A program made the position numbers. DNA of 64,000 nt from a virus, in the IMG/VR virus record IMGVR_UViG_3300044827_000008, positions 1 to 64,000 of that record; one strand, written 5' to 3'. Shown here one piece after another: positions 18,001 through 21,000 of the stretch; the stretch's first letter is position 1; every line of letters starts with the position of its first letter.

Positions 18001-21000
18001 CAACTCCATCGCTCGCCCGCAGTCCTGACACGTCACAGTGATCATGCCAGGAAGCTTACGCCGGGCCTTCCGCTAGGGCCTCTTCGAGAGTGAGGACCCG
18101 GCACGGCGGAATTCCGGCGTCCCCAATCGCAAGCGCGAGCGCCCGCTCGGCCTGCGCGCCCTTCGAGTTCTCCCATCCGGGTAGGAGCACGACGGCGTCA
18201 GCATTCTTTCCGATCCATTCGAGATCAGCCCCCAGGACTTCACGCAAGCTGAAGCCTCCCTTACCCTCGATCGACTCAATGTTGCCAGCACCCTTGAACA
18301 TGCGCGGGTTGTGCTTGTTCTCGTCCCGCTCGGCAGGGCTGAAAATTTCGTGCCCGAGAGCGCGAAGTTTGAACGCCGCATCTTTGAACGCCGGGAAGTT
18401 GAAGTCGGGGATGCCTCGCATCGGTCCGGCTACGTAAATTCGCATCAGAGTCCCTCCGGGTTGCGACCATCCTCGTCGATAGCCGTGAATCGCGCAGCCC
18501 TGCGCGGAAAGATTTTCTGGAGGTGGGCCACCTTCGCCTCGAACCTGTCATACAGGCTGCTCGATTGCTTCGGCGGACGATCATCCACGAGCTTGCCCTG
18601 CTCGATCGCGTCGATCAGGATCGCAGCACATGCGATGAGGTTCGCAAGGTGCGGAACCAAAGTCTTCGGGTCTTCCTCTTCTCCATTCCACCATTTGTCA
18701 AGATGACGCCTAGCAGCCGCAACGTACACGGACGCGAGCACCCCGGCCACGCGCCAGTTGAATTCGCCATACTTCAGCCCGCCCTCGACAAACGCGAGCG
18801 CACCATAGGCTACAGCCGATGGCGGAAAGCTTGAGAGATCAATCCTAGTTGTTGCGGCCTGATCTTTCGGGTTCGAGGCTTTCCAGTCGGGCTGGAACGG
18901 ACCCTCGATTCGGTCGGTGTCCTTGCCCACCTATGCCTTCCTGCGCCTGATCGGCTCGTTGTCCGGCCATCGCTCCCAGCAGTAATCCAAGATTTCAACA
19001 CCGCCAGTCGCCGTACCGGTGACCCACGCCACGACGCGCCATCCGCTCGTGATCTTGCCCAGCCATGTGTGGGCCGGGTCGGGAAGCATCCAGAAAAGGC
19101 GCGCAGTGAATCGAGCCACGCGACCCTCGTGAATCATTCCCCGATACTCGCCTGCCGTCGGCGTAGTCATGTGTTCGCTCCCGCCACGTCGTGAAACTCC
19201 GACGGCGACGGTTCGGGGCCGGGTGACCCGGTAGGAGAGGACCTTCCTTCCCGGCCCCTGATGTCGCTGTCGTACGCCGCGACTTCGGCACTGTACCGGC
19301 GAATGAGGGAGGAAGCCGTCTCGCTCGGAGAGTCCAACGTCTTCAAAAACGCGAGCATCTTCCTCGTGTGCTCGATCGAGCCGATCAGGTTCTCCCGCCC
19401 CTCTTCCGCCATAAGCATTAGTTTAGCGGCGCGATGGGTAGTCACTCGCCTGAAGTGGGATAAAGTAGCGGCACAGACACTTCCGACACTTGCCCGGCTT
19501 GATGTAGTTCGGCCCACGATGCTCGGGATCGCCCCAGTCCGAGTCCCAATCGCGAAAGTGCGCATGGACCTTGAATGGGTCGCCACAGACGCACGGGCGA
19601 TTTCCGTCCCGCTGGTCGGCACGCACGCACCAGAACACGGCGAGGGCTGCGACTCCGAAAAGCGAGGTGATCATGAGTGACTGGGCCAGGGAGGTATCCA
19701 TTTGGATGATTCTAGGCCGAGTGGTAAAAAGTCCGGCCCGGTAGGTTCGCCCACCAGCTACCTTGCGGCGCATTGGCCGGTGACCTTGCGCGGGCCGGGG
19801 CCTGACCAGAGACGACTCACGCCGCGTCGATCAGGAACAGTTTAGGGGGCACCGCCCTGCGACCCTTTGCGATTCTCAATCGCTCCCGGTGAGTACCGGC
19901 CTGCTCGGGCGGCGTACCTTTCGGCAGCGTTGCGGTCGAGCGAAGATTGTGCTCGGGCGGTGCTTTCCCTACATCACATGATAGCGCGCCCTGAAACGAA
20001 CACTCGCCTGAATATGGAAACGCCGGGCAATGATACCCGGCGCTTCAAGTTCTCTTTACGACTTCGGAGCGGACTTCGCTGGCTTTGCCTGCTCACCAGA
20101 CTCTTTGGCTTTCTCTTCAGCCGGAGTCGGGGTCACAGGTTCGCCCTCGCGACGACGAACACCTTTGTCGTCCGGCTTAAGTACCGGCTTAAACGGGTCT
20201 GCCATTGCATCTTCTCCTGAAACGAGATTTTTTCGGAAACGAACTACGGAGCTACGGGCGGGTCGGCTGCCGCGTCGGCTGCCTGGGTCGCGAGATCAGC
20301 GTGCGCGCTCTGAAGCTGAGCCACTGCCGCATCGAGTGCCGCCTGATCCGCCGGGGACAAGCTTGAGGCCGCTTCGATGGCCGCGACAAGGCCGTCGATC
20401 GCGGACTTGAGGGCCGAGTCATCGTCGGCTACTGCCTGAGCTACTGCCGTGAGGTCTGCGATGCTTGACATTGTTTGCACTCCTTGTGCTGTGTTGGCGG
20501 CGAGAGCCGCCGTATTCCGATCCAACGCGGCCCGAAGATGTGCGAGAAGGGCCGAACCTGCCGCATCGAGCGACCCTGTGAACGTGATGTTTACACTCAT
20601 CCTGCCTCCCTGATTTATTTTGGTCTGCCGCGTGCCTGCTTCTGGTTCCATCCCGTCGGGGAGTTGCCTTGCAGAAACGCGATGTACGACCCGCCGGGCA
20701 AAAGCTGGAGTGCCTTTGTCAACTTTTTGCGAAAGTCAAATGGTCCCGTTTTGTTCTCGGGATCGAACCACGCGGGTAGAACAAAATTCGACACCTGTAC
20801 TCCGTTGATCGTGTACAAATCCTGTTCAACCGCGTCGCAAACTTCAGCCATGTAGAGCGTGAAGGTTTTGCCATCGCCTACTGCGTCCTCCATGATGACT
20901 CGCGTAGTGATCGGGTCAACGATCATCTCAAGCACCTCGTGAGACAACACGGACGAGACGGAGACGCCGTCATCCTTCGCGGTTTTGCAGAGAATGTATG

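What the first reader, a model, noticed from the sequence alone, without database searches (positions are those of the whole stretch)
19726..19971. Stand-alone ~245-nt structured RNA of unknown family
Seen on minus: an upstream terminator (20017-20046), then TATCAT placed so that transcription would start at the first stem. Domain 1 (19843-19971) is closed by TAGGG/CCCTA plus GCACCGCCC/GGGCGGTGC and contains GCC-GAAA-GGT, CCGGT-ACTC-ACCGG and GCGATT/AATCGC hairpins. Domain 2 is CCTGATC..GTGA..GGTCAGG. Domain 3 is closed by CCGGCCCG/CGGGCCGG with GCAA/GCGA loops, then a U-run. The next gene has its own promoter. I could not match it to RNase P, SRP, 6S or small ribozymes. Inference: an independent phage ncRNA.
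Basis: partly seen in the sequence, partly recalled or inferred. Interest (0 to 1): 0.7.

Follow-up and report, generated by a model that had tools for sequence, protein, structure and literature searches.

The report
Two-part structured phage RNA gene
A soil phage carries a roughly 244-base non-coding, strongly folded RNA unit with its own promoter and terminator; it belongs to no known RNA family, appears to be built from two separate modules, and its function is still unknown.

Summary
On the minus strand, 19970-19726 has no coding signal in any frame. It folds better than shuffled sequence (z -2.45; z -3.25, 1 of 500 shuffles as good). No Rfam family matches, even at E<=10.

The promoter claim is now much stronger. 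TCAGGCnnnTn-N16-TAnnnT occurs 11 times in the 88-kb genome against 0.14 expected. Six of these sites put an ORF's start codon exactly 8 nt after the -10 box. The site at 20011-19978 puts that position on the first base of the domain 1 closing stem.

The RNA is not one evolutionary unit. The only relative found, metagenome contig L054, is collinear over about 8.5 kb. It keeps domains 2+3 (33 of 33 consensus pairs formed in both) directly after a conserved gene's stop codon. It lacks domain 1, the promoter and the U-run.

Domain 1 has no homolog anywhere I could search. No expression data exist.

Verdict: probably a real promoter-driven phage ncRNA of a new family, made of a lineage-specific 5' domain fused to an older 3' hairpin/terminator module. 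Function is unknown. Interest is moderate.

The parts
20244..20600 (-). Conserved 118-aa gene (Ala-rich, no Pfam or PHROG family) that precedes the element. In L054 its stop codon is 12 nt from domain 2.
   Evidence: 9 homologs (alignment A1). L054 3052-3423 matches window 20600-20319 at 71% aa identity. DNA is 77.7% identical over L054 2413-3422.
20056..20205 (-). P0002, a 49-aa charged small ORF. It lies in the 408-nt stretch (20244-19837) that L054 lacks.
   Evidence: Positive codon score of 11.5. One homolog, P0163, at 96% identity on a 1841-nt contig. Absent from L054.
20017..20046 (-). Strong hairpin after the P0002 stop codon; a likely terminator with a weak U tract.
   Evidence: -24.4 kcal/mol, z -6.98, 0 of 300 shuffles as stable. 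Sequence.
19978..20011 (-). Consensus phage promoter: TCAGGCGAGTGT (20011-20000), a 16-nt spacer, then TATCAT (19983-19978). The predicted start is A19970.
   Evidence: 11 sites of TCAGGCnnnTn-N16-TAnnnT in the 88-kb genome against 0.14 expected. At 7 of 11 sites ATG or GTG sits exactly 7 nt after the -10 box; 6 of these open ORFs of 53-178 aa.
19843..19970 (-). Domain 1: 128 nt with a long closing helix formed by its own 5' and 3' ends. Inside is a multi-branch core with three hairpins (loops GAAA, ACUC, GAG). An 11-nt direct repeat, CCGCCCGAGCA, occurs at 19960-19950 and 19912-19902.
   Evidence: -58.3 kcal/mol, z -3.12, 1 of 300. Repeat positions. No homolog or paralog found.
19801..19835 (-). 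Domain 2: a 35-nt hairpin, conserved in L054.
   Evidence: z -2.88. 14 of 14 pairs are kept in both sequences, 3 with a one-sided change.
19733..19798 (-). Domain 3: a long irregular hairpin. Its base and the GCAAGGUCAC / GAACCUAC blocks are conserved in L054. The apical part differs in sequence and length.
   Evidence: z -2.78. 19 of 19 pairs are kept, 3 with changes on both sides. L054 folds alike, z -3.23, 0 of 200.
19726..19730 (-). U5 run two bases after the domain 3 stem; the presumed 3' end.
   Evidence: Sequence. Not conserved in L054, which has UUCCUACU there.
19423..19701 (-). P0001, an orphan 92-aa ORF with a predicted hydrophobic helix and Cys/His motifs. It lies mostly in a second stretch (~19732-19457) that L054 lacks. 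TAGAAT sits 7 nt before its ATG, and there is no Shine-Dalgarno sequence.
   Evidence: Translation. The only database hit is itself. Weak codon score. Stretch missing in L054.
19167..19453 (-). Second consensus promoter (19453-19420) and the leaderless conserved gene it drives (ATG 19412, 81 aa).
   Evidence: L054 keeps the same 12+16+6+7 architecture before its ATG at 3604.

Best explanation
The interval is a real non-coding transcription unit of an uncultivated soil phage.

How it is made (inferred): RNA polymerase starts at about A19970 from one of eleven near-identical phage promoters. These promoters are confined to the non-structural part of the genome. Polymerase transcribes about 244 nt and stops at the domain 3 hairpin plus U5 (19730-19726).

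The product has two modules of different age.
- Domains 2+3 (103 nt) are an older element. In the relative L054 they close the upstream operon as a structured 3' end or terminator.
- Domain 1 (128 nt) is lineage-specific. It is a compact multi-branch fold whose 5' and 3' ends pair, and it arrived or was retained together with its own promoter.

My committed reading is that the window's phage makes a stable, free-standing RNA. Domain 1 is the working part, probably a protein- or ligand-binding fold acting in trans. Domains 2+3 provide termination and 3'-end protection.

A secondary possibility (about 1 in 5) is antisense action through the 5' strand of domain 3. That strand is perfectly complementary over 17 nt to the mRNA of the 587-aa ORF at 64479-66242.

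Shown: sequence, fold statistics, absence of coding signal, promoter recurrence, and conservation of domains 2+3. Inferred: transcription itself, both RNA ends, stability, and any function.
For: - No coding signal in six frames over 19770-20040. The indels against L054 within domains 2+3 are 2, 1, 2 and 10 nt, which break any reading frame.
- Fold statistics: z -2.45 and z -3.25, 1 of 500. The sense strand beats the antisense strand. Three GNRA hairpin loops against 0 of 500 shuffles.
- The promoter motif occurs 11 times against 0.14 expected. At 6 of 11 sites an ORF of 53-178 aa begins exactly at the predicted +1. That gives an internal calibration which places +1 at 19970, the first base of the closing helix.
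- No ORF starts at +1 of the site at 19970. The first ORF of at least 40 aa begins 197 nt downstream, inside domain 3.
- A strong hairpin lies just upstream and a hairpin plus U5 lies at the end.
- P0001 has no Shine-Dalgarno sequence and has a -10-like hexamer at the leaderless spacing. The RNA is therefore unlikely to be its leader.
- Domains 2+3 are conserved in L054: 87.7% over 57 nt, against 72-78% in the flanking genes. nhmmer gives E 7.5e-6. 66 of 66 cells are paired, with 3 pairs changed on both sides and 5 changed on one side. The L054 copy folds the same way on its own (z -3.23).
- No Rfam family at E<=10.
Against: - There is no expression evidence. No RNA run holds the sequence, and no read data cover it outside the likely source sample.
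- Only one relative exists. With two sequences the covariation is not significant (63 of 500 shuffles reach it), and the consensus structure was derived from those same sequences.
- Domain 1 has no homolog or paralog at all, so nothing shows that selection maintains its fold. The z-scores of about -3 come from a 70% G+C spacer and are suggestive rather than decisive.
- In L054, domains 2+3 have no promoter of the consensus type and sit where a plain terminator would sit. A more distant relative (L053) has an ordinary hairpin plus U7 terminator at that position.
- The GNRA loops of domains 2 and 3, and the U-run, are not kept in L054.
- The 17-nt complementarity was tested only against mononucleotide shuffles. 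Short exact matches of 20-21 nt to the same G+C-rich segment also turn up by chance inside unrelated actinobacterial ORFs.
Confidence: 0.55

Rival explanations
1. Domains 2+3 are only an elaborate transcription terminator or 3'-end stabiliser for the operon that ends with the 118-aa gene. Domain 1 plus its promoter, hairpin and P0002 are a recently inserted or duplicated 'moron'. Its short transcript has no function of its own beyond being terminated there.
For: - In L054 domains 2+3 lie 12 nt after the stop codon and 15 nt before the next promoter.
- L053 has a plain terminator at the equivalent place.
- The window differs from L054 by a clean 408-nt block.
- Domain 1 has no homolog.
- One promoter consensus site (55443+) also leads into DNA without a convincing ORF.
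Against: - A terminator needs neither two hairpins nor a 19-nt invariant block spanning their junction.
- L054 has no U tract after domain 3.
- Domain 1 folds into a closed multi-branch structure at z -3.12, starting exactly at the predicted +1. Debris would not be expected to do this.
- A near-identical strain keeps P0002.
Confidence: 0.22
2. The RNA is a cis-acting leader. One version is a riboswitch- or attenuator-like sensor, with domain 1 as the aptamer and domain 3 plus U5 as the regulated terminator. Another version is a put-like RNA that modifies polymerase. Either would control read-through into P0001 and the genes beyond it.
For: - A promoter-proximal structured domain is followed by a terminator and then an ORF 25 nt later.
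- The duplicated 11-mer CCGCCCGAGCA allows two mutually exclusive pairings, of GCUCG and of GGGCGG (sequence).
Against: - P0001 is an orphan with a weak coding score.
- P0001 has no Shine-Dalgarno sequence, and it has a -10-like hexamer at the leaderless spacing used by 6 other genes.
- The next conserved gene has its own full consensus promoter.
- L054 keeps the putative terminator but has neither the aptamer nor P0001.
- The very stable domain 2 hairpin separates the sensor from the terminator.
- No riboswitch family matches.
Confidence: 0.12
3. The fold is a chance property of a G+C-rich intergenic spacer left by recombination. There is no functional RNA.
For: - The region is 70% G+C, and shuffles already fold to about -100 kcal/mol.
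- The antisense strand also folds well.
- There is only one partial homolog, and the covariation is non-significant.
Against: - At most 3 of 200 and 1 of 500 shuffles fold as well.
- 0 of 500 shuffles have three GNRA loops.
- An exact consensus promoter is positioned at the helix start.
- Domains 2+3 are more conserved than the neighbouring coding DNA and keep 33 of 33 pairs despite 8 varying pairs.
- A 330-nt non-coding stretch is unusual in this tightly packed region.
Confidence: 0.1

Closest known systems
Small phage-encoded ncRNAs with their own promoter and intrinsic terminator (lambda OOP, P22 sar, T4 species 1/2 RNAs). These are recalled from general knowledge and come from no call.
   Same: It is a short non-coding unit in the non-structural part of a phage genome, bounded by a promoter and a hairpin plus U-run. 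A possible antisense segment targets a phage mRNA.
   Different: It is much longer and more elaborately folded than OOP or sar, with a multi-branch 5' domain. There is no overlapping antisense gene at the locus, and no sequence or Rfam relationship.
HK022 put RNAs and other processive-antitermination RNAs (recalled).
   Same: A structured RNA made immediately downstream of a phage promoter and upstream of a terminator.
   Different: put consists of two simple stem-loops acting on a long downstream operon. Here the downstream genes carry their own promoters and leaderless starts, and domain 1 is not conserved in the relative.
Structured 3' UTR / terminator-derived sRNAs of bacterial operons (recalled as a class).
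   Same: In L054, domains 2+3 sit directly behind a stop codon at the end of a transcription unit.
   Different: In the window the same module is also the 3' half of a separately promoted RNA. Two hairpins with an invariant junction are conserved, rather than a single terminator stem.
   Same: Size range and G+C-rich helices with GNRA loops. There are loose word-level resemblances to the P4 strand of RNase P and to the SRP domain IV sequence; these are my own recall, not a test.
   Different: No model of the 4227 reaches even E<=10 on the interval in either phage. The genome has no Ro60/TROVE gene and no reverse transcriptase. The element is intergenic and does not interrupt an ORF.

Membership tests
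Any Rfam 15 family (4227 models) | Covariance-model score at or above the gathering threshold, or at least a weak hit | tested here: not met
   Whole window at gathering: only tRNAs and a 68-nt tmRNA-like hit elsewhere. 19400-21800 at E<=10: nothing inside 19726-19971. L054 2100-3700 at E<=10: nothing on domains 2+3.
Intrinsic (Rho-independent) terminator, for domain 3 | G+C-rich stem immediately followed by a U tract | tested here: inconclusive
   The window has an 8-bp G+C closing stem and then AC plus U5. The scanner did not call it because the hairpin is long and branched. L054 keeps the stem but has UUCCUACU instead of a U run.
Riboswitch / transcription attenuator | Conserved sensor domain upstream of a conserved regulated gene, with a terminator and a translatable downstream ORF | tested here: not met
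   Domain 1 is absent from the relative, which keeps domain 3. The downstream ORF is an orphan without a Shine-Dalgarno sequence. The next conserved gene has its own promoter.
Riboswitch / transcription attenuator | Ligand-dependent alternative pairing | not testable with these tools
   Only the potential for alternative pairing through the duplicated 11-mer is visible.
Y RNA / YrlA | Ro60 (TROVE) partner gene and a YrlA-like fold | tested here: not met
   No TROVE match in the 88-kb genome; the control rang in 2 of 14 genomes. No YrlA hit on the interval.
Retron msr-msd / DGR template / group II intron | Adjacent reverse transcriptase gene | tested here: not met
   No RVT_1 match in the genome; the control rang in 4 of 14.
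Group I intron | Interrupts a gene whose exons join into one ORF; P1-P9 core | tested here: not met
   The element is intergenic. L054, which lacks the 408-nt block, loses no coding sequence. No Intron_gpI hit at E<=10.
Coding piece of a two-piece tmRNA (partner of the 68-nt tRNA-like domain at 21443-21510) | Resume codon plus tag ORF, pseudoknots, and helices pairing with the acceptor piece | tested here: not met
   ARAGORN finds no tmRNA. tmRNA and tmRNA_permuted models hit only 21306-21510. The tRNA-like domain is closed by its own hairpin (alignment).
Trans-acting antisense sRNA | Extended complementarity to a target mRNA, conserved with the target in relatives | tested here: inconclusive
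   17-nt perfect complement to the ORF 64479-66242 mRNA; 0 of 1000 mononucleotide shuffles share a 17-mer with the genome. The relative's target gene is not on the DNA held. Similar short matches occur by chance in G+C-rich ORFs.
This phage's own promoter class (TCAGGCnnnTn-N16-TAnnnT, start 8 nt after the -10 box) | Full motif with fixed spacing | tested here: met
   The site at 20011-19978 is one of 11 in the genome against 0.14 expected. Its 12-mer is identical in 11 of 12 bases to the site at 19453.

The most novel reading that the evidence does not exclude
Domain 1 would be the founding member of a new class of compact phage RNA: a protein- or metabolite-binding fold, or a decoy. It would have been captured as a mobile promoter-plus-RNA cassette and plugged onto a pre-existing conserved two-hairpin 3' module. 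The composite would act in trans during early infection. One route is pairing of the conserved GCAAGGUCAC-containing strand of domain 3 with the mRNA of the late 587-aa LamG-like (tail-fibre-like) gene, to delay its expression. This would be an example of modular evolution of a viral regulatory RNA.
Probability: 0.15. Interest if true: 0.7.

Novelty: new variant of a known kind. Interest (0 to 1): 0.48.

Why it matters
Structured non-coding RNAs of phages are far less charted than their proteins. Almost none are known from uncultivated soil phages.

If this unit is transcribed as predicted, it adds a new RNA family. It also gives a clear case of an RNA gene assembled from an old 3' module and a new promoter-bearing 5' domain.

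The by-product may be of more immediate use. The work yields a sharply defined promoter consensus with leaderless starts for this phage lineage. That consensus lets transcription units be read from sequence alone. It also flags a second promoter that fires into about 950 nt without an ORF.

The present evidence does not show function, so the value is that of a well-delimited candidate ready for experiment.

Tried and rejected
**Homolog searches that gave nothing**
- blastn (distant mode) of 19400-20300 against 50,697 phage records: no match.
- tblastn of the 135-aa ORF against phage records: no match.
- The search for related loci with the 265-aa protein and with P0001 in viral contigs: 0 relatives each.
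- TerL relatives: 51 loci at no more than 36% identity. Domain 1 model R2 on these plus L053-L056 (55 loci, 759 kb): best hit 16 bits, E 0.12.
- P0001 and P0002 protein searches found only themselves or a near-identical strain.

**Pattern scans**
- Domain 2/3 junction pattern: 0 hits in viral contigs. It gave 29 hits in genome contigs, all chance by model R1 (at most 17.5 bits).
- Domain 3 block pattern: 22 viral hits, all chance (at most 14 bits).
- Duplicated 11-mer pattern: 3 viral hits. One is Pro-rich coding DNA and two are tandem repeats.

**Other searches**
- R1 and R2 on the phage's own 88 kb found only themselves.
- BLAST of the RNA against 401 genomes of the phylum of G002: 26 of 401 had 20-57 nt matches. 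I looked at the 8 best. All lie in long ORFs with unrelated flanks, and none is an Rfam family. The other 18 were not inspected.
- Earlier scan notes by sequence: nothing.

**Sequencing runs**
- No RNA holder is listed. There are 3 DNA soil runs, one of them the probable source.
- Contigs of runs X2 and X3 did not cover 19742-20143.

**Literature**
- One full-text search, of which I saw only the listing and abstract openings. Nothing concerned such an RNA. This is not an exhaustive claim of absence from print.

**Ideas dropped**
- Y RNA (no TROVE gene).
- Retron or DGR (no reverse transcriptase).
- Z-genome context for the neighbouring dATP/dGTP diphosphohydrolase-like gene (no PurZ-like match).
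- The 116-aa extended form of P0001 running through domain 3: negative codon score, and not conserved, since L054 has a stop there.
- The resemblance of the 3' end of domain 1 to the end of the 118-aa gene is too weak to call a duplication.
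Full report
**Where the window lies.** The window is bases 1-64000 of an 88,347-bp IMG/VR virus record with direct terminal repeats. The record was probably assembled from a soil metagenome. Genes around the finding run on the minus strand. They include a large terminase (15431-17020), an exonuclease, and a dATP/dGTP diphosphohydrolase-like gene. The phage is distant from anything cultured. Its terminase is at most 33% identical to proteins of deposited phages and at most 36% to IMG/VR contigs.

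**The observation.**
- The 246-nt stretch folds to -116.5 kcal/mol. Its z-score is -2.45, with 3 of 200 shuffles as good. My own dinucleotide shuffles give z -3.25, with 1 of 500 as good.
- Three of the five hairpin loops are GNRA. No shuffle of 500 had three.
- The complementary strand is unremarkable (z -1.25).
- A codon-usage score trained on 15 long genes of this phage is negative in all six frames, with stops, from about 19770 to 20040.
- Each part is separately unusual. Domain 1 has z -3.12, domains 2+3 have z -2.77, and the upstream hairpin has z -6.98.
- Rfam gives nothing on the interval at gathering thresholds or at E<=10 with relaxed filters.

**The promoter.**
- The 12-mer TTCAGGCGAGTG occurs without mismatch twice: before domain 1 and before the next conserved gene.
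- The generalised pattern TCAGGCnnnTn-N16-TAnnnT occurs 11 times in the genome, always with the same spacing. Markov-random genomes give 0.14 on average and at most 1.
- All 11 sites lie between 19 and 63 kb, outside the structural genes.
- At 7 of the 11 sites an ATG or GTG stands exactly 7 nt after the -10 hexamer. In 6 of these it opens an ORF of 53-178 aa; the seventh opens only 28 aa.
- Of the other four, one has an ATG 3 nt further on that opens 505 aa. One has a 41-nt leader with a Shine-Dalgarno sequence. One (55443+) leads into DNA without a convincing ORF. The last is the site before domain 1.
- The leaderless genes therefore calibrate the start point. For the site at 20011-19978 it falls on A19970, the first base of the AGGG/CCCU closing helix.
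- No ORF starts there. The first ORF of at least 40 aa begins 197 nt downstream, inside domain 3. It has a negative coding score and is not conserved.
- This is the strongest new support for an RNA gene.

**The relative, and what it changes.** The gene upstream of the element is called as 135 aa, but its homologs show it is really about 118 aa (20600-20244). It has nine homologs in a 5.8-billion-protein set. A profile of these found four loci.
- L054 (contig CAAGKR010411139.1) is collinear with the window from 25247 down to 16689. Gene after gene is 50-91% identical at the protein level, and the DNA is 70-78% identical.
- In L054 the 118-aa gene stops at 3423. Twelve bases later comes a 112-nt stretch (3436-3547) homologous to domains 2+3. 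blastn gives 87.7% over 57 nt; nhmmer gives E 7.5e-6.
- Fifteen bases after that begins the conserved promoter of the next gene. It has the same 12+16+6+7 layout before its ATG.
- The window therefore carries two blocks that L054 lacks. The first is 20244-19837 (408 nt): P0002, the hairpin, the promoter and domain 1. The second is about 19732-19457: the U-run and most of the orphan ORF P0001.
- More distant loci have an ordinary hairpin-U7 terminator at that place (L053) or the next gene directly (L055, L056).

**Structure conservation of domains 2+3.**
- The RNAalifold consensus has 33 pairs. All 66 cells are standard pairs. Three pairs changed on both sides and five on one side.
- Sliding the partners by 1-3 columns drops pairing to 21-46%.
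- The L054 copy folds by itself into the same two hairpins (z -3.23, 0 of 200), and again better than its complement.
- The apical part of domain 3 differs completely in sequence and by 10 nt in length, yet remains a hairpin.
- The indels are not multiples of three.
- Caveats: with two sequences the shuffle control is not significant (63 of 500), and the structure was derived from these same sequences.
- The GUGA and GCAA loops are not kept in L054, nor is the U-run.

**Search for more copies.**
- A covariance model of domains 2+3 (R1) and a single-sequence model of domain 1 (R2) find only their sources in the 88-kb genome.
- Nothing scored above 17.5 bits in 34 sources (307 kb), 55 loci (759 kb) or 22 pattern hits (185 kb).
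- Pattern scans of IMG/VR and of 185,579 species genomes gave only chance hits.
- BLAST against 401 genomes of one phylum gave 26 short matches. The 8 I inspected were all inside unrelated ORFs.
- A near-identical strain exists: P0004 and P0163 sit on one 1841-nt contig.
- Domain 1 therefore stands on a single sequence.

**What it most likely is.** I read the interval as a promoter-driven RNA of about 244 nt. It ends at the domain 3 hairpin plus U5 and is assembled from two modules.
- The 3' module (domains 2+3) is ancestral to the two phages. In L054 it can only be the 3' end of the upstream operon's transcript.
- The 5' module (domain 1) is specific to the window's lineage and carries the promoter.
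- P0001 has no Shine-Dalgarno sequence and has a -10-like TAGAAT at exactly the leaderless spacing. The next conserved gene has a full consensus promoter. For these reasons a leader or riboswitch role is unlikely.
- Function is not shown by anything here. My committed guess is a stable trans-acting RNA whose working part is domain 1.

**One lead for a mechanism.** Nucleotides 19790-19774 are the 5' strand of domain 3 and include the block conserved in L054. They are perfectly complementary over 17 nt to the mRNA of the 587-aa ORF at 64479-66242.
- 0 of 1000 mononucleotide shuffles share a 17-mer with the genome.
- That ORF has only a sub-threshold LamG-like match.
- I rate this lead at about one in five. 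The segment is mostly base-paired in the fold, the shuffle control is lenient for codon-biased G+C-rich DNA, and the relative's target could not be examined.

**Comparison with known systems.** The unit works like the small promoter-plus-terminator RNAs of classical phages (recalled, not tested). It is not a member of any curated family.
- Rfam has no match on the interval.
- The genome has no Ro60 gene and no reverse transcriptase, which excludes Y RNA and retron or DGR readings.
- It is not an intron, because the element is intergenic and the relative loses no coding sequence without it.
- It is not the coding half of a split tmRNA.

**Verdict.** This is a well-delimited, probably real ncRNA candidate of a new family with a modular origin. 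The evidence is good for 'non-coding, structured, promoter-fronted'. It is thin for conservation of the 5' domain and absent for expression and function.

Noticed in passing
window 21443-21510 (-); L054 2224-2292 (+): The 68-nt tmRNA reduced to its tRNA-like domain is also present in the relative L054. It scores 59.6 bits against the Rfam tmRNA model in the window, above the gathering score of 47. In L054 it scores 43.7 bits, just under gathering. The acceptor/T-arm is conserved and the connecting helix is changed. It is therefore a maintained gene rather than a one-off deletion.
   Followed up: partly
G000: 63346(-), 58840(+), 55443(+), 55437(-), 42755(-), 34061(-), 29905(-), 28987(-), 26952(-), 20011(-), 19453(-): A phage promoter consensus, TCAGGCnnnTn-N16-TAnnnT, occurs at 11 sites against 0.14 expected. 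Six sites drive leaderless ORFs whose start codon is exactly 8 nt after the -10 box. The architecture is kept in L054.
   Followed up: yes
window 55484-56431 (+): One consensus promoter of a divergent pair fires into about 950 nt with no convincing ORF. The region lies at the minimum of cumulative GC skew. Rfam gives only sub-threshold noise, and there are a few 17-18-nt inverted repeats. It could be a replication origin or a long ncRNA.
   Followed up: partly
G000 66033-66049 (outside the window) versus window 19790-19774: A 17-nt perfect complementarity links the 5' strand of domain 3 and the mRNA of the 587-aa ORF at 64479-66242, which has a weak LamG-like match.
   Followed up: partly
window 18445-18930 (-): A dATP/dGTP diphosphohydrolase-like gene (PF18909, E 1.5e-23) is 91% identical at the protein level in L054. 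No PurZ-like adenylosuccinate synthetase is in the genome, so a 2-aminoadenine genome is not indicated.
   Followed up: partly
window 19423-19701 (-): P0001 is an orphan 92-aa ORF with a hydrophobic N-terminal helix and CxC / CxxCxC motifs. It lies in a block absent from L054, and its stop codon is the TAA of the next promoter's -10 box.
   Followed up: partly
window 20615-21412 (-): A 265-aa protein has no Pfam or PHROG hit but 3812 relatives at E<=0.001 among 1.84 billion representative proteins. It is a large uncharacterised family. L054's copy is 83% identical.
   Followed up: no
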